Shown here piece after piece: positions 17,066 through 63,602 of a DNA stretch of 64,000 nucleotides. The first letter of the stretch is position 1. Each line of letters opens with the position of its first letter. Below the pieces are notes generated by a model. That model saw nothing but the letters and a program-made list of their open reading frames with translations. It did not search any database and was not told the origin of the DNA. This DNA comes from Ignavibacteria bacterium (GTDB lineage Bacteria > Bacteroidota > Ignavibacteria > Kapaibacteriales > UBA2268): contig JAOADV010000004.1 in assembly GCA_026417135.1 (NCBI GenBank), forward strand, positions 814 to 64,813, read 5' to 3'. Made by a program: the position numbers and the translations under genes.

Positions 17066-17761
17066 TCATTTGTTGTAAAAAAAGAGGTTTTTATCGATTT
17101 CACTGTTTATATTTATGCTTACAATTTGTACGATTGTTTTTTTTGAGTTGTTTGCAATAATTTCCAAAGTTCTTGGGACTGCGAACCCTTTGTATTGAAA
17201 AAAGTTGCGAGGAATAATTTTAAAGGTAAATGGAGATTGATAAAAACTAACAAGTTTATAAATATCCAACTCGTTTTTCTTACTTAAAAAGTAAGTTGTC
17301 GTATCGTTAGTTAGGTTAACTATGGAAAACGAGTGGTATTCAACGTCTTCTTTTTGATTATCGAGAATTTTAAGTTGTTCGAAAATATTATTGTCGAAGA
17401 AAGAGAAAAGTGAGAGGATATTCGACTTTGTTCTTACGACTTCCTCTGGATGCAAGTCGGTGGGTTGGTATATGTTCCGGGTTGGGTCCACAATCCATCC
17501 AATTGTTCCTTTTACAACTGTTATAGCATAAATATTGTCGAAACGAACTTGAAGTCTTAAGGTATCGGGTAGCAATCGGTGAAGTACAAATTCCAAGGAG
17601 TCGTTGTTTTCGTTTATAATTACCCCGATTATTTGATAATTCTTCAAGGAATTTAATGCCGAAGGTTTAGCGAGGAAATTCTTATAACTTTCGAAAAGCG
17701 TATTGTTTATTTGTGCATTAGTTATCAGAACAGATATAAGAAATGCAAATAAAATTTTCAT
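17066..17761 (-). CDS. hypothetical exported protein
   Basis: 231 aa with an N-terminal signal peptide (MKILFAFLISVLITNAQ). No recognisable catalytic motif. Confidence 0.4.
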   Translation of the reverse strand: MKILFAFLISVLITNAQINNTLFESYKNFLAKPSALNSLKNYQIIGVIINENNDSLEFVLHRLLPDTLRLQVRFDNIYAITVVKGTIGWIVDPTRNIYQPTDLHPEEVVRTKSNILSLFSFFDNNIFEQLKILDNQKEDVEYHSFSIVNLTNDTTTYFLSKKNELDIYKLVSFYQSPFTFKIIPRNFFQYKGFAVPRTLEIIANNSKKTIVQIVSININSEIDKNLFFYNK

Positions 17762-42320: not shown

Positions 42321-42697
42321 AATTTTTCAAATTAAAAAAAGTAAAAGAAATTGAAACTTGTGTTGAATAAAAGTTTTAAAAATTTAATGAATTTTTTTCC
42401 GAGTTTAGTCAAGTAAAATTAAATTCGAAAAGGACAAGTTTTCTATTAAATTGATATGTTTTCTAAGTATGTATAACAATTTTCGGCAGTCTGGTAATTC
42501 TAGGATTATTCCTTTGAAAGTATTACGAATTTTTTGCTTTGACTAATTTAACTTAAAAAAATCCAATCTAAAAAAATTGGAAAAGAAGTATCTTTGCTCA
42601 TTTTCCGTAAAAAAATCGATGCTGATTTAGAATAAATTTAGTACTTGGTATAATTTTTTTGATTTAGTAAATCAAAGTTATTCGATTCTTTTGATTT

Positions 42698-43471: not shown

Positions 43472-43714
43472 AAAGACAAATATAAAAAATTCTAATATAC
43501 TTTTAATATTACGGTTATAATTTGCCAAATGGAATATTTCGCTTTTGTTTTGGATTTTTTAAATTAGATAAGGCAAACTTGAAAAATACCATTTCCAAGA
43601 GGAAGAAATATATCTTCGTTCGATATTTTTTAGTTTAAAAGATTTTAACTCAGAAAATTTGGTATGATTTTTTCTTAGAAAATCTTTTGATTTGAGGAAG
43701 GTAGGAGTTGGTGG

Positions 43715-56472: not shown

Positions 56473-57231
56473 ATGATAAAAATTTTAACTTTTTTTTCTC
56501 CGAGTAGTTTTTTTCAATTGAATTTACCGCACGATGCAATTTTTGTTGGTGTCGATATTTTGCGGGCGGGGACAACACTTTGTACTGCTTTAGCAAACAA
56601 AGCAAAGGAAGTTGTTCCAGTTGTAAGCTCAGAAGTTGCACTGAGGTTGTATAATCGATTCGACAGAGATAATGTTTTGCTTTGCGGCGAAAGAAATGGA
56701 CAAAAGATAGAAGGATATGCTCTTGGAAATTCTCCATTAGAGTTCACTTCGGAAAAGGTAAATAATAAAACCTTGATTTTAGATACAACAAATGGAAGCA
56801 AAATTTTCGCAAACGGATTGGATTTTCGCTATGCGTTGGTTGGGGCTTTTATTAACTTCACTTCTATATTCAATGTTATAAGCAAAATTATATCTTCGAA
56901 AAATGCGAATATGATTCTTCTTGTTTGTGCGGGGGACAAAGGTGGCTTTTCTTTCGAAGATGCTCTTTTTTGTGGTAGTTTAGCAAAAAAAATTGCAGAA
57001 TCCAGCAATAAATTTGTTTTAGATGATGCAACGAGGGCCTCGATTGACTTATTTGAACTACATAAACCGAATTTATGTGAATTTGTTAAATCCACCTCTC
57101 ACGCGAAAAATTTAATTGCCCTTGGATACGAGGAAGATATTAATTATGCTTTAACAACGGACCTTTTCGCTGTTGTTCCAATTTCTAACGGTGTTTCCTA
57201 CATCAGCTATAGGCCGAAGGATGGCGAGTGA
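56473..57231 (+). CDS. 2-phosphosulfolactate phosphatase (ComB) family protein
   Basis: VGVDILRAGTTLCTAL…LLCGERNGQKIEGYALGNSPLEF…LDTTNGSKIF are ComB-family motifs. The start was chosen at MIKILTFF (56473), which follows AAAAGGGGGG, not the ORF-track start at 56422. Confidence 0.7.
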   Translation: MIKILTFFSPSSFFQLNLPHDAIFVGVDILRAGTTLCTALANKAKEVVPVVSSEVALRLYNRFDRDNVLLCGERNGQKIEGYALGNSPLEFTSEKVNNKTLILDTTNGSKIFANGLDFRYALVGAFINFTSIFNVISKIISSKNANMILLVCAGDKGGFSFEDALFCGSLAKKIAESSNKFVLDDATRASIDLFELHKPNLCEFVKSTSHAKNLIALGYEEDINYALTTDLFAVVPISNGVSYISYRPKDGE

Positions 57232-59815
57232 AAAGGATAAGGTAGAAATTCAATATAGAAGAAAGAGAAAGAGCTCTTTCCAAGAACCACAAACTCAAAA
57301 TGATTCTGCGGAAGAGCTTCGCAAACAAATAGAAGAAAAATATTTTAATCGATTGAAGATTATTTCAATTTTAGTTTTGATTTTTTCATTCTTTGCTGTT
57401 TTATCAATTTTATCTTACTCTCCAAAAGATGAGTTCATTTATTCCTTTTCTTTTAAGGATGTTCTGGGTTTAATAACTGGCGATGAATCGGCTATTCAAA
57501 AAGCGAAATCCGTGTCTAATTTACTAGGTCCTTTTGGTGCGGTTGTGGCAAATTTTTTTATCAAAGCTACTATTGGTTACTTTTCTGTAATTTTCCCTAT
57601 TCTTGCAATTCTTTGGTCGTTAAAGATTATTCTTACTAAGTCGTTCAGTGGACCTTTGGCAAAAAGGACACTCTTTGCGGTCATTGGTTTGGTAGCAGTT
57701 GCCTCATTTTTAGAAAGCTTAAACTTGCTTTTTGCTTTGAAAATTCCTTATTTCTGGATTGGTTCTTTGGGTTATTCTATTTCTAATGTTTTATCGAACA
57801 TCTTTGGTAATCTTGGAGCTCTTTTAATACCAATTTTTACCATATTTTTTGCTATCATATTTACCATTGAAGTAAAGATAGAAAATTTTTTTCTTGCTTG
57901 CAACGATGGATTAAAAAAAATTCTTGGAAAGTTAAGGGAACTGAGGGTCAAGAGACAAAACGAAAATATCGAGAAAGAGACTCAAGCGAAAGGAAATTTA
58001 AGTGAATCAATTCCAGCATTGGATGAAGATATCGAAACTGGCCGCATATTAATCCAAAATATTAGCAAGAATGAAAATGGAAGTGAGTTCATAGACAAGC
58101 CTGATTCGACTAATTCTATTATTCGAAAAGACTTTTCAAGCGAAAATTTAGAAAAAGAAAACTACATTGCACCATTGGTGGAAAGAGAAAATCGTTCCGA
58201 CGATATTGAACAAGACTTGGAAAGTAATGAGAATGATAGGAAGCTTGTAGTAATAGTCGAACAAGAAGAAGAAGATGTCGTCGATGGGAAAAAATCAGCT
58301 TTTAGCCCTTTGTCGACTATTACCCTTGATGAAAAAATAAATTACACACCACCACCAATTGATTTACTTATCGACGATGAAAGCAAGTTTCAAATAAACG
58401 AGGAGGAGTTAAAACAAAATGCTCGAACCTTACAAGAAAAGCTCGAAACTTTTAAAATTTACATCGAAAATTTAACGGTAACTCCCGGACCCGTGGTTAC
58501 GTTATTTGAATTTGTTCCAGCACCAGGAATTAAAATTAGTCGAATTCAAAGTCTTGCCGATGATATTGCTTTAGGATTGAAAGCAAAGGGAATAAGAATT
58601 ATCGCACCTGTGCCCGGTAAAGGGACGGTCGGAATAGAAATGCCAAACAGAAAGCCATTGGTTGTTAGATTTGGAAATTGTTTGAAAAATGCGCGAATAC
58701 CTCCTAACTTTAAGTTACCGATAATTCTCGGGAAAACAATTTCGGGCGAAGTGTATGTGGACGACCTTACAAAGATGCCCCACCTTTTGATTGCAGGGGC
58801 CACAGGCTCTGGCAAAAGTGTTGGCATAAATACAATTATCGTATCCTTGATATATAAAATGTCGCCGCAAAATTTGAAGTTTGTTATCATCGACCCCAAA
58901 AAGGTTGAACTTTCGCAGTATCAACAACTTTTGTATCATTACCTTGCAGTTTCTACTGAAATCGAGGATGCGATTATTACTGAACCACACGATGCTGTGC
59001 ATATTCTTAAATCTCTTGTGGCGGAAATGCAAATAAGATATGATATTCTTGCATCAGTTAATCAAAAGAACATCGCGGAATATAATAAAAAGGTCAAGGA
59101 TGGTGTTTTCAAAAATGAGACCGAATTCGAGCATCGACCTTTACCGTACATAATTGTAGTAATTGATGAATTAGCCGATTTGATGCTAACGGCTGGAAAA
59201 GAAATTGAAACTTTGATAATACGACTTGCGCAGCTTGCTCGAGCAGTTGGAATACATTTGGTTGTAGCAACTCAAAGACCTTCGGTTGATATCATTACTG
59301 GGTTGATAAAAGCAAATTTCCCGGCAAGGATTGCTTACCTTGTTGCTTCGCGGGTGGATTCGCGAACTATAATAGATACAATTGGTGCGGAACAACTTCT
59401 TGGTAGTGGCGATATGCTTTTTCTTCCTAATGGAAGTCCCACTCCGATTAGATTACAAAATGCATTTCTGACTACCGAAGAAATCGAAAGAATTTGCGAT
59501 TACATCGGCAACCAGAAAGGTTTTTCTAAGCCTTACTATTTGCCAGCAATTGACGATGGAAAAGGTGCAAAGGAGCTGGTTCGTGAAGGTTTCGACCCAC
59601 TTTTTGCCGAAGCTGCTAGGCTAATCGTTCGATATCAGCAAGCTTCCGTTTCGATGTTACAAAGACGGCTTAAAGTTGGCTACAATCGTGCTGGTCGGAT
59701 TATGGATGAGTTGGAAATCGCTGGTATTGTTGGTCCATTCGATGGAAGCAAAGGTCGAACAATTAAAATTAAAACAGAAGAAGAGTTAAACGATATGCTA
59801 AGTAAGTTCGAGTAA
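57221..59815 (+). CDS. ftsK: DNA translocase FtsK/SpoIIIE
   Basis: N-terminal 4-5 TM helices, a long acidic/low-complexity linker, and the motor domain with Walker A LLIAGATGSGKSVGIN. The C-terminal gamma winged-helix domain follows. Start chosen at MASEKDK (57221), overlapping the ComB-like stop by 11 nt; the ORF-track start is 57173. Confidence 0.9.
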   Translation: MASEKDKVEIQYRRKRKSSFQEPQTQNDSAEELRKQIEEKYFNRLKIISILVLIFSFFAVLSILSYSPKDEFIYSFSFKDVLGLITGDESAIQKAKSVSNLLGPFGAVVANFFIKATIGYFSVIFPILAILWSLKIILTKSFSGPLAKRTLFAVIGLVAVASFLESLNLLFALKIPYFWIGSLGYSISNVLSNIFGNLGALLIPIFTIFFAIIFTIEVKIENFFLACNDGLKKILGKLRELRVKRQNENIEKETQAKGNLSESIPALDEDIETGRILIQNISKNENGSEFIDKPDSTNSIIRKDFSSENLEKENYIAPLVERENRSDDIEQDLESNENDRKLVVIVEQEEEDVVDGKKSAFSPLSTITLDEKINYTPPPIDLLIDDESKFQINEEELKQNARTLQEKLETFKIYIENLTVTPGPVVTLFEFVPAPGIKISRIQSLADDIALGLKAKGIRIIAPVPGKGTVGIEMPNRKPLVVRFGNCLKNARIPPNFKLPIILGKTISGEVYVDDLTKMPHLLIAGATGSGKSVGINTIIVSLIYKMSPQNLKFVIIDPKKVELSQYQQLLYHYLAVSTEIEDAIITEPHDAVHILKSLVAEMQIRYDILASVNQKNIAEYNKKVKDGVFKNETEFEHRPLPYIIVVIDELADLMLTAGKEIETLIIRLAQLARAVGIHLVVATQRPSVDIITGLIKANFPARIAYLVASRVDSRTIIDTIGAEQLLGSGDMLFLPNGSPTPIRLQNAFLTTEEIERICDYIGNQKGFSKPYYLPAIDDGKGAKELVREGFDPLFAEAARLIVRYQQASVSMLQRRLKVGYNRAGRIMDELEIAGIVGPFDGSKGRTIKIKTEEELNDMLSKFE

Positions 59816-59879
59816 GAAATAATTGAATTTTATTAATTCGATAAATTCGTAAGCTACTTTAATAAAATTTTTTCGAATA

Positions 59880-60848
59880 TTACCTAAATTTAACAAATTG
59901 GAGCAGATTTCTCCAAATAATAGGATATTTACCACCAAGAGGACCAATTTTCTTCCAATCGCCAAGAACTTCTAACTCTCTTAAAATTCTTAAAATGTCT
60001 GTTATATCTCTTTCAACATTGGTAGTTTGACTTGCGAGTTTCTCTTTCAAAATTTTATCACATAGAACCTTCTTAAGGCTTTTAATATTTTCGAAATAGT
60101 TGTAGTCATCGTTAATTTCTTGAATAATTCCAACAATGTCGATATAGTTCCCTTGGATGAGAAATATTTTTCGGATAAATTCTTTAATCTTATCATCATC
60201 TTTTTCTGCAATTTCTAAGAACTCTTTGCCCAGTTCAGAAATTTCGTAGGAATTTAAATCGAAGAGCTTTAAATCTCGTAATAATAATTTGATATTGATT
60301 AAGTTAGATTTTTTTGCTGATTTCCATTTTCTAATTTTGGTAATTGTATGCCAAATTGTTTCATCAATATATTCTTTTTTGGGTGAATTTTGAAGAGCTT
60401 GGTAAATGTTTTTTAAAATAATATAGATTTCCTTATATTTTAAATCTCTGTAGTAAGCATAACCTCTTTGAATTTTTTCTGTAGTTATTAATAGCTCGGC
60501 TTGTGGTTTTGGTTCTCGATGTATTGAAACTCTGTTAGGTTCAACACAAATTATTCAAATGAAATTTGTCCATAACCATTTTTCCATTAATTCTAGTTCT
60601 TTTCTGGGTAAGGCTAAGTAAGATTTATCTGAATGCCTACAAAAAGCAATAGCTTGTCCCAATCCAGTCAAGTACTCTCTTCGATTAAGGTTGCTTGCCT
60701 TACATTCGATTTGAGCCAAAGTGCCATTTAAGTATTTAACTTGAATGTCGGGCATAGGGAAGTGATAAGCGAATCTTGTTACAATTTCGACATCGGACTT
60801 TTGTTTGAACCAATTAGAAACTAATTGCACAACCTCGTTATGTGTCAT
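59880..60848 (-). pseudogene. putative Type II restriction endonuclease (PD-(D/E)xK fold) interrupted by an in-frame TGA at 60555-60557
   Basis: A 97-aa ORF (60555-60848) contains the PD…ExK motif FPMPDIQVKYLNGTLAQIECKAS. The same frame continues past a single TGA for another 224 sense codons down to a TAA at 59880-59882. That downstream segment has no ATG, GTG or TTG near its 5' end, which is why it is absent from the ORF track. Sampled lines are ~25% GC against ~40% for the neighbours. Confidence 0.5.
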
Positions 60849-61758
60849 TTTGGTTTTTTAAAAATTAGAACATAGTCGTGGTTACAGATAAAATAATTAA
60901 ACCTTAGGGAGCGATATTTATTCAAGTTGATTTTGCCTTGCCGTGAACTTGCAAAACGAGTAATCTTGATGACTTTTGAATAATATTCAAAACCGACCTT
61001 TAAACCAACTTGCGTTGCGTAAAAATCTAATGGTATTGTTTTACCTCCTTTTTTAAAGTCCTCGCCAATTAAAACACAGAAAAATTTTCCTTTTTTAAGA
61101 ACTGTGAAAACTCCGATGAAAACTTTCTCTAACCCTTCGAGAAAACCATCAAGTGTTTTTTCGTTGGAAAGGTCTCCATCGACGAAGCCATATTCTTCAC
61201 CATATTTGACAAGTTCCCAATATGGTGGATGTGCAAAACAAAAATCAAAACTTTCTTTTTCTAAACCAAGTTCGAGCAGTTTTGTTGAGTTCCCAAGAAT
61301 AACTCGTTGTTGTTTAAGCCAAAAAAGTAATGAATCATCGTCAAATCCCAATGTTTCTTGTTGCAAATTTAATTTAGCAACTTCGAGTATTTTAGGGTTA
61401 ATTTCGACACCGACACCTCTTCGTTTCACTGTGCAGCAACTATCAAAGTGGTTCCCGAACCACAAAATGGGTCCAAAATCAAATCGCCTTCTTTCGAAAA
61501 GCGAAGCAGACATTGGCGTGGTATTTCAATTGGGGAATTGCCGTGGACGGTATATTTAGTCCAATTGTATGGGTCGCGTTCTGGGGTATCCCATATTGTA
61601 AAAAATTGAATGTCTAAGTTTTGTTCGTATTCTTTCCATTTTGTAGGGTCTAAGTCGTTTACTTCGCCATTTTCCGTTTTTTTCGATATTGCGTTTGGTT
61701 TTAAAAGTTTATATTTACTTAGGTTAAATAATTCGTCCATAACTTTTGCAAAATACAA
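60845..61758 (-). pseudogene. N6A/N4C-type DNA amino-methyltransferase disrupted by a -1 frameshift near 61426-61432
   Basis: The 110-aa ORF ends …HGNSPIEIPRQCLLRFSKEGDLILDPFCGSGTTLIVAAQ* (motifs X and I). The overlapping 222-aa ORF in the -1 frame continues …KRRGVGVEINPKILEVAKLNL (motifs II-III), then ILGNSTKLLELGLEKESFDFCFAHPPYW (motif IV), then …NHDYVLIFKK. Restoring one nucleotide after the CAG (Gln) codon joins them into AAQ-x-KRRGVGVEIN. Its stop overlaps the nuclease gene start as ATGA. Confidence 0.6.
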
Positions 61759-61800
61759 AATTAGATGATTTTAATTGTGTTTAAAATGAAAAGAAAAGGG

Positions 61801-62421
61801 TTATTTCCCCGATATATCTAACAAAATTTTATTTAAAAAGGTTTTTCTATGCAATGGACTGGGCTGGTATTTCAATATTTTTTCGATGTGCATTTTTGTC
61901 GCATAACCTTTATGCCTGTCGAAACCATAAATTGGATACAGTTTATGGGCAACTTCGCTCATCCAATTATCCCGCTCAACTTTTGCAACTATCGATGCAG
62001 CAGCGATAGAAAATGATTTTGTATCACCATCGACAATAGTGGAAAATTCATAAGGACCTTCGAAACGGTTTCCATCGATTAAAACATAAGGAGCGTAATC
62101 AGCAAGTTGTTCAAGGGCTTTGTTCATAGCTAAGATAGTAGCTTTCAAAATGTTGATTTCGTCTATTTGATATGCTGGAACAAAGTAAGTTGAAAAAGCC
62201 AGACAAGTTGAGATGATTTTTTCGTAAATTTTTGCACGAACCTTTGGAGATATGGTTTTGGAATCGAAAACTTCGTAGTCTGGGACGAAATTTAGAGGGA
62301 AAATCACAGCGGAAGCGAATACTGGACCAGCAAGAGAACCCCGCCCAGCTTCGTCGACCCCAGCAACGAGCTTTCCAATTTCCCAAAATTTTTTTTCAAT
62401 ATCGAAATTAGGTCGTTTCAA
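61801..62421 (-). CDS. rnhB: ribonuclease HII
   Basis: VAGVDEAGRGSLAGPVFASAVIF is the RNase HII active-site motif. 206 aa. Confidence 0.9.
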   Translation of the reverse strand: MKRPNFDIEKKFWEIGKLVAGVDEAGRGSLAGPVFASAVIFPLNFVPDYEVFDSKTISPKVRAKIYEKIISTCLAFSTYFVPAYQIDEINILKATILAMNKALEQLADYAPYVLIDGNRFEGPYEFSTIVDGDTKSFSIAAASIVAKVERDNWMSEVAHKLYPIYGFDRHKGYATKMHIEKILKYQPSPLHRKTFLNKILLDISGK

Positions 62422-63144
62422 TTATTTTAGGTAACCCATTCCAATTAAGTTTAAAAATTCATTTCTGAGGTTTAAATCGGCAAGCAAGTAGCCTCGCATA
62501 ACTGAAGTAATCATAAGTGAACTTTCTTCGTCTCCTTTAACGCCACGAGCAATCATACAGTAGTGCCGAGCACGAATTACAACGCCCAAAGCTTTTGGTC
62601 TTATTAATTCTTCTATATAATCGGCAATTTGTTCGCCCAATTCTTCTTGAATTTGCCCACGTCTACAAAACCAATCGACAATGCGCGAGAGTTTACTAAG
62701 ACCGATAATATACTTGTTTGGAATATAGCCGATAGAGCATTCCCCCGAAATAGGTTGCCAATGGTGAGAGCAAACACTCATTACAGTTATTCCTTTGCTT
62801 ATGATTAGTTCATTTATTTTCTTTCGATTTGGGAAAATTGTACTTTTAGGTGGCTCTTGAAATCTTCCAACAAAAAGTTCATTAACTAACATTCGTGCAA
62901 TCCGCAAAGGTGTTTTTGTCGAGTTTGGGTCTTGTCGGGAAATTCTAAGTATTTCCATCACTTCGATAAATTTTTGCTCGAGCCGTTGAATCATTGTCTC
63001 GCGTTCCTCTTTGCTTAGAGGGATGTTAGCATTAGCATCGAACAATAATTCGTTCCACTGATTATGAGTTGGAAAAGTACTTAAAATTTCCTCAGTTTCG
63101 CTTTCAAAATCGTCGATGTAATTGTTTTCGGGTTCAAAGTTCAT
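62422..63144 (-). CDS. folE: GTP cyclohydrolase I
   Basis: …MSVCSHHWQPISGECSIGYIPNKYIIGLSKLSRIVDWFCRRGQIQEELGEQIAD… contains the conserved CxHH and Cys residues of FolE. Confidence 0.9.
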   Translation of the reverse strand: MNFEPENNYIDDFESETEEILSTFPTHNQWNELLFDANANIPLSKEERETMIQRLEQKFIEVMEILRISRQDPNSTKTPLRIARMLVNELFVGRFQEPPKSTIFPNRKKINELIISKGITVMSVCSHHWQPISGECSIGYIPNKYIIGLSKLSRIVDWFCRRGQIQEELGEQIADYIEELIRPKALGVVIRARHYCMIARGVKGDEESSLMITSVMRGYLLADLNLRNEFLNLIGMGYLK

Positions 63145-63158
63145 ATTTTCATACTACA

Positions 63159-63602
63159 CTATTGATAATCAAAAATCTTTATTTCGACTGGTTCACCAAA
63201 ATATTCTACAAAGTTATTTTCGGTTTCGTAAATTTTGATTTTAAAAAGTTTTCCGTTTGGAATTTTATCTTCGAGTTGGCGCCAGAACATAATTGCAAGA
63301 TTCTCCACTGTTGGTATTATTCCGCGAAGAAAATCGACCTCTGTGTTGAGATTTTTGTGGTCAACCTTTTCGATGATGTTCTCGTTTATTATTTTTTTTA
63401 AATCTTTTAAATCGGTTAAATACCCCGTCGCTGGATTAGGATGGCCACAAATGGTAACTTCGAGAATGTAGTTGTGTCCGTGCCAATTTGGATTGTTACA
63501 TTTATCGAAAATTCTTTCATTTTGTTCATCTGTGAATTCGGGATTGAAAAGCCTATGTGCAGCCGAAAATGATGCCCTACGTGTAATAAAAACCATAAGC
63601 AA
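63159..63602 (-). CDS. queD: 6-carboxy-5,6,7,8-tetrahydropterin synthase (PTPS/QueD family)
   Basis: RASFSAAHRL…CNNPNWHGHNYILEVTI contains the QueD CxxxHGH zinc/catalytic motif. 147 aa. Confidence 0.85.
   Translation of the reverse strand: MLMVFITRRASFSAAHRLFNPEFTDEQNERIFDKCNNPNWHGHNYILEVTICGHPNPATGYLTDLKDLKKIINENIIEKVDHKNLNTEVDFLRGIIPTVENLAIMFWRQLEDKIPNGKLFKIKIYETENNFVEYFGEPVEIKIFDYQ

What the first reader, a model, noticed from the sequence alone, without database searches (positions are those of the whole stretch)
59816..61800. Compositional island: AT-rich two-gene insertion at the 3' end of the queD-folE-rnhB operon, converging on ftsK
Sampled lines in the nuclease remnant are ~23-25% GC, against ~38-48% in ftsK and ~40% in the methyltransferase and rnhB. 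The two genes sit at the tail of a conserved minus-strand housekeeping run (queD, folE, rnhB), with only 42 nt between rnhB and the methyltransferase and no mobility gene. This is the only clearly horizontally acquired segment in the window and is the accessory spot that might vary between strains. Something recognisable as a defence module has been deposited here and then degraded. Related strains may carry an intact restriction-modification system or a different defence system at the same rnhB/ftsK junction.
Basis: partly seen in the sequence, partly recalled or inferred. Interest (0 to 1): 0.55.

Follow-up and report, generated by a model that had tools for sequence, protein, structure and literature searches.

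The report
Recently inactivated restriction-modification gene pair
Between rnhB and ftsK sits a horizontally acquired two-gene restriction-modification cassette whose methylase and nuclease genes are each broken by one single-base lesion; this is ordinary biology, except that the nuclease belongs to a rare, unnamed family shaped like the Type IIS enzyme PaqCI.

Summary
The AT-rich trough is real but narrower than claimed. Positions 59816-60554 are 27.6% GC against a window mean of 36.2%, and they contain the lowest 750-nt window of the 64 kb. The trough covers only the 3' two-thirds of one gene. The methyltransferase gene and the 5' third of the nuclease gene are at the window average.

The segment is a Type II restriction-modification cassette on the minus strand, M then R, with an ATGA stop/start overlap. 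The "nuclease remnant" is one complete 322-codon frame with a single in-frame TGA, at a glycine that is invariant in full-length homologues. The methyltransferase (PF01555) carries a single 1-nt deletion just after motif I. Both genes are therefore very recently inactivated, or carry assembly errors in this single-contig MAG.

The same M-R pair occurs in more than 40 other loci in unrelated contexts, bacterial and apparently archaeal. It is absent downstream of rnhB in five related lineages. One of those lineages carries an MmeI-like RM gene at that spot instead, with strain-level swapping of its recognition domain.

Verdict: new member of a known kind, modest interest.

The parts
60845..61740 (-). 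DNA methyltransferase gene (M), 298 codons once repaired. Motif I is DPFCGSGTT and motif IV is HPPY. It is split into two ORFs by a 1-nt deletion.
   Evidence: Pfam PF01555 N6_N4_Mtase E 8.9e-28. PADLOC MTase_II PDLC03351 E 1.2e-47, nearly full length. Homologues are 53-72% identical and uninterrupted.
61426..61434 (-). Frameshift site in M. The sequence GCA CAG TGA should read GCA CAG TTG A.., meaning one T was lost from a Leu codon between 61429 and 61428. This creates the premature TGA at 61426-61428.
   Evidence: Adding one T restores ...TLIVAAQLKRRGVGVEINP... in a single frame. Homologues read SAHLKRR and SAHLERI, with TTA or TTG at that codon.
59880..60848 (-). Restriction endonuclease gene (R). 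It is one 322-codon frame with ATG at 60848-60846 and TAA at 59880-59882. The start overlaps the M stop (ATGA).
   Evidence: Frame-0 translation is open apart from one TGA. Full-length homologues of 320-329 aa cover 100% of it.
60555..60557 (-). In-frame TGA at R codon 98, read as a nonsense mutation (GGA to TGA).
   Evidence: Gly98 is invariant in the 19 full-length homologues. The closest bacterial homologue, L001, has GGA there, GGA is the commonest Gly codon in the window, and TGA ends 8 of 48 ordinary genes.
60516..60848 (-). R N-terminal PD-(D/E)xK endonuclease domain (about aa 1-111) with the catalytic motif P33-D34 ... E48-C49-K50.
59883..60515 (-). R linker (carrying the invariant RGYAYYRD motif) plus the C-terminal helical, winged-helix-like target-recognition domain. 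This is the AT-rich part.
61741..61800 (-). 60-nt spacer between the rnhB stop and the M start. It marks the upstream boundary of the insertion.
   Evidence: No terminator-like site lies in it. It has no DNA similarity to the upstream spacers of homologous cassettes.
59816..59879 (.). 64-nt spacer between the convergent stops of ftsK and R. It marks the downstream boundary of the insertion.
   Evidence: Sequence read directly. Flanking inverted and direct repeats are not above chance (32/500 and 151/500 shuffles reach the observed score).

Best explanation
The segment is a self-contained Type II restriction-modification cassette acquired horizontally. It lies downstream of rnhB at a point where gene order breaks in this clade (Kapaibacteria/Ignavibacteria). 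In working copies, M and R form one transcription unit with an ATGA stop/start overlap. M is an amino-methyltransferase of the PF01555 lineage with permuted motif order (I then IV) and an HPPY motif IV. It marks host DNA. R has an N-terminal PD-(D/E)xK cleavage domain (D34, E48, K50), a linker, and a C-terminal recognition domain that appears to be built of two winged-helix-like units. This is the PaqCI architecture. R therefore most likely binds its site through the C-terminal domain and cuts through dimerised N-terminal domains, possibly outside the site as Type IIS enzymes do. In this genome the system is dead. R has a GGA-to-TGA nonsense mutation at the invariant Gly98, between the two domains. 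M has lost one T just after the SAM-binding motif I.

Shown: gene identities, the two lesions as they stand in the assembly, M-R linkage, the fold match, and absence of the cassette from relatives at this locus.

Inferred: that R was lost before M, because losing M first would be lethal; that the lesions are biological; that the enzyme acts in Type IIS fashion; and that the cassette is expressed by read-through from rnhB.
Against: The window comes from a single MAG contig (NCBI proteins MCX7879717, MCX7879719 and MCX7879720; one contig of 145,738 bp). Neither lesion could be checked against reads or a second assembly. No empty rnhB-ftsK site exists in any relative, so the insertion boundaries and its age are not defined. 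No flanking repeats or mobility genes explain how it arrived. R shows no sequence similarity to PaqCI or to any solved structure. R is 322 aa against 491 aa for PaqCI. A single small methyltransferase is unusual for an asymmetric Type IIS site, so the subtype is uncertain. Neither the recognition sequence nor the methylated base (m6A or m4C) is known.
Confidence: 0.75

Rival explanations
1. The cassette is intact and functional in the organism. The TGA and the missing T are errors of metagenome assembly or consensus calling.
For: The source is a MAG with a single contig and no second assembly. Both lesions are single-base events. Apart from the near-invariant Pro51 (Ala here), every conserved residue is preserved, as expected if the genes are still under selection.
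Against: Two independent lesions fall within about 900 nt, while the 48 other gene proxies in 64 kb read as long uninterrupted ORFs. I did not check each of them against homologues. One lesion is a G-to-T substitution rather than a homopolymer indel, and the deletion is in a TT dinucleotide rather than a long run. The same kind of single-base R knockout is present in three assemblies of another lineage. R inactivation followed by M inactivation is the expected order of decay.
Confidence: 0.17
2. The two genes are ancestral core genes of this lineage that were lost from relatives. They are not a horizontal insertion.
For: L001 and L002, two Ignavibacteria that are 77.8% identical over 16.7 kb, keep the cassette at the same position. 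It can therefore be inherited vertically for long periods. Synonymous codon choice is host-like.
Against: Five lineages with 56-68% identical RNase HII keep the DUF4292-queD-folE-rnhB gene block but have other genes after rnhB. The cassette sits in unrelated contexts, including archaeal-type neighbours. The family has only 169 representative clusters among 1.84 billion. In homologous loci the cassette's GC is on average 3-5 points below its flanks.
Confidence: 0.05
3. The interruptions are programmed: TGA read as Gly (genetic code 25) or read through, plus a -1 ribosomal frameshift in M. This would act as an expression throttle for a toxic system.
For: The TGA lies exactly at an invariant Gly codon. 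The M frames overlap in -1 register.
Against: TGA terminates 8 of 48 ordinary genes in the window. Homologues have plain GGA or GGT and uninterrupted M genes. There is no slippery heptamer at GCACAGTGAAAC. GGA to TGA is a one-step mutation from the commonest Gly codon.
Confidence: 0.02

Closest known systems
PaqCI, a Type IIS restriction endonuclease (PDB 8EM1; PMC10201449)
   Different: Structural identity is only 10-14%, and there is no detectable sequence homology. R is 322 aa against 491 aa and has a much smaller recognition domain. Its oligomeric state, recognition site and cut position are unknown. It is paired with one small methyltransferase.
Recognition domains of FokI, N.BspD6I and BpuJI, and BrxA
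   Different: In FokI the domain order is reversed, with recognition N-terminal and cleavage C-terminal. The matches are partial (158-171 residues).
PF01555 N4/N6 DNA methyltransferases, e.g. T. thermophilus TTHA0409 (PDB 2ZIE), M.PvuII, M.MboIIA
   Same: M scores 98 bits against Pfam PF01555, above the gathering threshold. The SAM-binding motif I region aligns with 2ZIE at E 3e-17, and the PPY motif region aligns as a second stretch.
   Different: The motif order is circularly permuted. Motif I is at residues 89-97 and motif IV at about residue 164, whereas the solved relative has IV first and then I. Motif IV reads HPPY in all 42 family members examined, rather than the usual D/N/S-PPY.
Mobile and allelic RM loci described by Furuta, Abe and Kobayashi 2010 (PMC2853133)
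   Same: The RM genes vary at a fixed chromosomal spot between related genomes. A related species carries a different RM type at the rnhB 3' end, and its strains differ in the recognition-domain allele of that Type IIG gene.
   Different: The flanking long target duplications, inverted repeats, integrase and transposase reported in that study are not detectable here.

Membership tests
Type II restriction-modification system | A SAM-dependent DNA methyltransferase with motifs I and IV | tested here: met
   PF01555 E 8.9e-28. PADLOC MTase_II E 1.2e-47. DPFCGSGTT and HPPY are present.
Type II restriction-modification system | An adjacent gene encoding a nuclease with a catalytic motif | tested here: met
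   An invariant PD...ECK motif. The AF2 model matches the nuclease domains of PaqCI and other REases. No sequence-family hit.
Type II restriction-modification system | M and R genes linked across genomes | tested here: met
   M lies directly upstream of R on the same strand in every one of more than 40 loci that include upstream DNA.
Type II restriction-modification system | Both reading frames intact, so the system can work | tested here: not met
   R has an in-frame TGA at codon 98. M has a 1-nt deletion after motif I.
Type II restriction-modification system | Site-specific cleavage that is blocked by the cognate methylation | not testable with these tools
   This needs biochemistry on an intact homologue.
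Type IIS (PaqCI-like) endonuclease | Separate cleavage and recognition domains, with the cleavage domain N-terminal | tested here: met
Type IIS (PaqCI-like) endonuclease | Detectable sequence homology to PaqCI | tested here: not met
   The family profile and a distant 459-aa relative gave no significant PDB sequence hit.
Type IIS (PaqCI-like) endonuclease | An asymmetric recognition site with cleavage at a fixed distance outside it | not testable with these tools
   No recognition-site data exist. 64 kb is too little sequence for motif-avoidance statistics.
Type IIS (PaqCI-like) endonuclease | Methylation capacity for both strands of an asymmetric site (two methyltransferases or a fusion) | tested here: inconclusive
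   The cassettes carry only one methyltransferase gene of about 298 aa. This is compatible with a symmetric site or with single-strand protection.
Beta-class PF01555 amino-methyltransferase | Motif order IV then I, and motif IV reading (D/N/S)PP(Y/F/W) | tested here: not met
   The order here is I (residues 89-97) then IV (about residue 164). Motif IV is HPPY in 42 of 42 relatives. M still belongs to the Pfam family by score.
Genomic island / horizontally acquired insertion | Absent at the same locus in relatives and present in unrelated contexts elsewhere | tested here: met
   The relatives are distant, at most 70% RNase HII identity.
Genomic island / horizontally acquired insertion | Atypical composition across the whole insert | tested here: inconclusive
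   Only the 3' two-thirds of R deviates strongly (GC3 z -3.1). The two M halves have GC3 z +1.3 and -2.5, and codon choice is host-like. The same domain is AT-rich in homologues.
Genomic island / horizontally acquired insertion | Mobility genes or flanking repeats | tested here: not met
   No integrase or transposase is adjacent. Boundary repeats are not above chance. No copies were found in viral contigs.

The most novel reading that the evidence does not exclude
The R gene may represent an uncharacterised, very small family of 'minimal' PaqCI-like Type IIS endonucleases. These would be about 320 aa, with an N-terminal cleavage domain and a recognition module that appears to be built of two winged-helix-like units. 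They would be served by a single, permuted PF01555 methyltransferase with an HPPY catalytic motif. The family has 169 representative clusters among 1.84 billion. Intact homologues from Ignavibacteria and archaea would then be a source of compact enzymes with new specificities, and of an unusual methyltransferase active-site variant.
Probability: 0.4. Interest if true: 0.45.

Novelty: new member of a known kind. Interest (0 to 1): 0.3.

Why it matters
For this genome, the finding marks the rnhB 3' end as an accessory spot and catches a restriction-modification system just after inactivation, with one lesion per gene and no further decay. More broadly, the nuclease has no entry in Pfam, NCBIfam or PADLOC and no sequence relative of known structure. 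Its predicted fold nevertheless ties it to PaqCI, a Type IIS enzyme used in Golden Gate cloning. Intact relatives such as P0001-P0003 could be tested for new recognition or cleavage properties. The HPPY motif of the partner methyltransferase is a variant worth a biochemical look. None of this changes how restriction-modification systems are understood.

Tried and rejected
- The genome-contig scan with RNase HII returned only distant relatives (at most 49% identity) without synteny.
- Exact look-ups of the window's own RNase HII and R fragment found no contig. The source contig and its reads could therefore not be inspected. Only the NCBI protein accessions were recovered.
- I searched for flanking direct and inverted repeats. 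A 30-nt, 73%-complementary pair sits at the cassette ends, but 32 of 500 shuffles do as well. I rejected it as evidence of a transposon-like form.
- The viral contig scan found no relative.
- PDB sequence searches with the R profile and with a distant relative gave nothing significant.
- A literature search for an HPPY methyltransferase motif returned only unrelated papers.
- The apparent fragmentation of the MmeI-like gene in L010 looked like decay at first. It is a run of 100 N, so I rejected that reading.
- Other low-GC spots in the window were sampled. They hold ordinary genes (CDP-diglyceride synthase-like, PAP2, GDPD, a histidine kinase) or intergenic DNA.
- I considered genetic code 25 or read-through for the TGA and rejected both.

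Full report
**1. Observation**

The window averages 36.2% GC. Positions 59816-60554 are 27.6% GC. The 750-nt window at 59761-60510 (27.1%) is the lowest of the whole 64 kb, against a mean of 36.2% and sd of 3.1.

The dip does not cover the claimed 59816-61800 interval evenly. The 5' third of the nuclease gene is 36.1% GC. The two methyltransferase ORF pieces are 35.1% and 37.2% GC. ftsK averages 36.9% and rnhB 37.8%. At 300-500 nt scale several other spots, mostly intergenic, are as low or lower.

Treated as codons, the 3' two-thirds of the nuclease gene has GC3 of 24.1% (z -3.1, lower than all 49 gene proxies). Its GC at codon positions 1 and 2 is 31.0% (z -2.6). Both amino-acid content (rich in Lys, Ile, Asn, Leu) and silent sites therefore contribute. 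Synonymous codon choice is not atypical.

In 25 homologous loci the same part of the gene is almost always the AT-richest piece. The cassette averages 3-5 GC points below its flanks. The trough is thus largely a property of this protein domain, carried along with the cassette.

**2. What is there**

All features are on the minus strand except ftsK.

- queD (63159-63602), folE (62422-63144) and rnhB (61801-62421) were confirmed by Pfam.
- After a 60-nt spacer comes a methyltransferase gene (ATG at 61740, stop at 60845-60847). It matches PF01555 (E 8.9e-28) and a PADLOC Type II methyltransferase model (E 1.2e-47, nearly full length).
- The methyltransferase gene is split into two overlapping ORFs (61426-61758 and 60845-61513). 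Restoring a single T between 61429 and 61428 gives one 298-codon frame reading ...DPFCGSGTTLIVAAQLKRRGVGVEINP.... Homologues read SAHLKRR or SAHLERI there, with TTA or TTG for the Leu.
- The next gene starts at 60848, overlapping the M stop (ATGA). The frame in fact continues open for 322 codons to TAA at 59880-59882, with one in-frame TGA at 60555-60557.
- ftsK (57173-59815, plus strand) converges on this gene, with 64 nt between the two stops.

**3. The nuclease gene is one gene with one lesion**

A search of 5.8 billion proteins found 23 relatives. Most are 320-329 aa and cover 100% of the fused frame at 37-62% identity. None has a Pfam domain.

In the alignment the TGA falls on Gly98, which is invariant in the 19 full-length sequences. 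L001 has GGA at that codon. GGA is the commonest Gly codon in the window. TGA terminates 8 of 48 ordinary genes here, so the genetic code is standard. GGA to TGA is a one-step change.

All other family-invariant residues are present in the window copy: H3, F30-P31, P33-D34, E48-C49-K50, R57-E58-Y59, R128, Y130, Y132, R134-D135, W166, R173, N185, R191-D192 and others. The only other departure is Ala in place of the near-invariant Pro51.

Both genes therefore carry exactly one inactivating single-base lesion and show no further decay.

**4. Is it a restriction-modification pair?**

A scan of metagenome contigs gave 48 further loci. In every locus that includes upstream DNA (more than 40), tblastn finds the cognate methyltransferase directly upstream on the same strand. 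It is either abutting or overlapping the nuclease start. The methyltransferase is more conserved (53-72%) than the nuclease (37-59%), as is usual for such pairs.

The nuclease has the classical PD...(D/E)xK signature (P33-D34 ... E48-C49-K50).

An AlphaFold2 model of homologue P0001, built with 19 sequences, has mean pLDDT 90.8 and pTM 0.86.

- Next come the FokI, N.BspD6I and BpuJI recognition domains and BrxA for the C-terminal part, and NucS, Can2, SdaI and NgoMIV for the N-terminal part.
- Foldseek agrees: PaqCI at E 1.3e-8, probability 1.00, TM 0.69 normalised to the query.

According to its structure paper, PaqCI has an N-terminal endonuclease domain with catalytic D54/E73/K75. This is joined by a 16-residue linker to a C-terminal target-recognition domain, the reverse of the FokI order (PMC10201449). 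The architecture here is the same but smaller, 322 aa against 491 aa.

There is no sequence-level similarity to PaqCI or to any solved structure. NCBIfam and PADLOC also give no hit.

A full HMMER pass over 1.84 billion representatives finds 169 clusters at E <= 1e-3 and 12 at E <= 1e-30. This is a small family with a somewhat wider halo of 370-470-aa relatives.

**5. Is it an insertion?**

The window's RNase HII is identical to NCBI MCX7879720.1 from a MAG labelled 'Ignavibacteria bacterium' (contig 145,738 bp). The split R and M fragments are MCX7879717.1 and MCX7879719.1.

The nearest other RNase HII sequences are only 56-70% identical and include Candidatus Kapaibacteriota. Five such lineages were inspected. 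All keep the DUF4292-queD-folE-rnhB gene block. The gene after rnhB differs in each:

- a CDP-alcohol phosphatidyltransferase-like gene (L014, L063);
- a rhomboid gene, with a Type ISP RM gene 3.6 kb further on (L064-L066);
- yidC (L067, L068);
- in the P0027 lineage, an intact 961-aa MmeI-like fused RM gene converging on rnhB, followed by frr-pyrH-tsf-rpsB (L011, L012).

The apparent fragmentation of that gene in L010 is a run of 100 N.

Two strains of the P0027 lineage (L013 and L011) are 99.94% identical over 8,175 nt, running through rnhB and into the 3' end of the RM gene. Identity then drops to 57-83% inside the recognition-domain region. This is the kind of allelic TRD diversity described for Type IIG genes by Furuta et al. 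2010 (PMC2853133).

The 3' end of rnhB is therefore a synteny break point in this clade. In two of six lineages it holds RM cargo. No relative has rnhB next to ftsK and none is close enough for a strain comparison, so the exact insertion boundaries are undefined.

Elsewhere the same M-R cassette sits at other loci:

- between an EF-G paralogue and rpsL in two Ignavibacteria that are collinear at 77.8% identity over 16.7 kb (L001, L002);
- between an RseP-like gene and dnaX (L016);
- next to archaeal-type genes (FttA and a GatD-like gene, the latter judged by eye; L047, L021);
- beside a NotI-like nuclease and a NucS-like gene (L046).

No copy was found in viral contigs. No mobility gene or significant flanking repeat is present in the window.

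**6. Are the lesions real?**

They could not be verified. There is one contig and no reads.

Four points favour real mutations.

- Two lesions fall within about 900 nt, while the other 48 gene proxies in the window read as long open frames. I did not check each of these against homologues.
- One lesion is a substitution.
- The pattern of R knocked out and then M knocked out is the expected order of decay, because loss of M alone would be lethal. This rests on established knowledge of post-segregational killing by RM systems.
- In another lineage (Naka2016-like, L002-L004) the R gene carries a 1-nt deletion in three assemblies. A 98.9%-identical contig (L015) is uninterrupted up to its end at codon 292.

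I put about 0.17 on assembly error.

**7. Mechanism**

Shown:

- the gene identities and the domain architecture;
- the catalytic motifs;
- the M-R overlap;
- the absence of a predicted terminator between rnhB and M.

Inferred:

- the pair is transcribed with or just after the rnhB operon;
- M translation precedes and is coupled to R;
- M methylates an exocyclic amino group (A-N6 or C-N4, undetermined);
- R binds through its C-terminal module, which looks like two winged-helix-like units in the predicted secondary structure, and cleaves through dimerised N-terminal domains.

Whether R cuts outside an asymmetric site (Type IIS) or within a symmetric one is open. The single small methyltransferase argues for caution.

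**8. Comparison with known systems, and novelty**

This is a Type II restriction-modification cassette of ordinary organisation and ordinary fate. Three things are new:

- the nuclease family is unnamed and rare;
- its predicted fold links it to PaqCI;
- the partner methyltransferase is a permuted PF01555 member whose motif IV is HPPY in 42 of 42 relatives.

I rate it a new member of a known kind, with interest 0.3.

Noticed in passing
window 61243-61254 (motif IV of M); loci L001-L060: The catalytic motif IV of this methyltransferase family reads HPPY in 42 of 42 relatives, not the usual D/N/S-PPY. Motif I also precedes motif IV, which is a permuted order for PF01555. A literature search for HPPY found nothing relevant.
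   Followed up: partly
L002, L003 and L004 at about 8607, against L015 at about 6608: In a Naka2016-like Ignavibacteria lineage the R gene carries a 1-nt deletion (TTTCAAGTT to TTTC-AGTT) in three assemblies. A 98.9%-identical contig is uninterrupted up to its end at codon 292. This is an independent, strain-level knockout of R with M still intact.
   Followed up: yes
L001 7111-9008; L002 7108-8971: In two Ignavibacteria the same M-R cassette sits co-directionally between an EF-G paralogue downstream of rpoBC and rpsL-rpsG-fusA-tuf. The two loci are collinear at 77.8% identity over 16.7 kb, so the cassette has been held inside a ribosomal-protein gene neighbourhood for a long time.
   Followed up: partly
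L011 and L012 7710-10595; L013 7710-8664: A Kapaibacteriota relative has a 961-aa MmeI-like RM fusion directly downstream of rnhB. Two strains are 99.94% identical for 8.2 kb and then fall to 57-83% inside the recognition-domain region, which indicates a specificity-domain swap.
   Followed up: yes
L064 and L066 11306-14374; L065 11344-14412: Another relative carries a 1022-aa Type ISP RM gene (ISP_coupler, N6_Mtase, Type_ISP_C) about 3.6 kb downstream of rnhB; in L064 and L066 rpsD is called immediately after it. RM genes in this clade repeatedly sit beside housekeeping genes.
   Followed up: no
L023 944-1501, L026 1561-2109, L029 1829-2377, L024 1611-1925: In one subgroup of cassette loci a conserved 182-185-aa gene lies divergently upstream of M. 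The one copy scanned (L023) has no Pfam hit. The shared sequence contains a GDVDV...EVKSKYP pattern that resembles a PD-(D/E)xK motif, so it may be a third component or a neighbouring nuclease.
   Followed up: partly
L046 3985-4863 and 7114-8040; L026 4243-5310: Some cassette copies lie among other defence-type genes: a NotI-like endonuclease, a NucS_C/DUF5655 protein, and an AAA_15/AAA_21 ATPase.
   Followed up: partly
L057 5116-6729 (FMJZ01040314.1): In this copy both M and R need several frame changes to align. It is either a heavily decayed cassette or a poor assembly.
   Followed up: no
window 42321-42697, 43529-43714, 211-960: The other lowest-GC stretches of the window (22-28%) include intergenic gaps beside a GDPD gene and a PAS histidine kinase at 42-44 kb, and a stretch around the 3' end of a CTP_transf_1 gene at 0.2-1.0 kb. 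No accessory genes were seen among the ten genes sampled.
   Followed up: partly
window 17066-17761 (-): A 231-aa ORF with low GC at codon position 2 has no Pfam match.
   Followed up: no
window 59898-59916 (-): A terminator-like hairpin followed by a T-run lies inside the last 12 codons of R, just before its stop. It could serve as a terminator for the rnhB-M-R transcript, but the stem is weak (6 bp).
   Followed up: no
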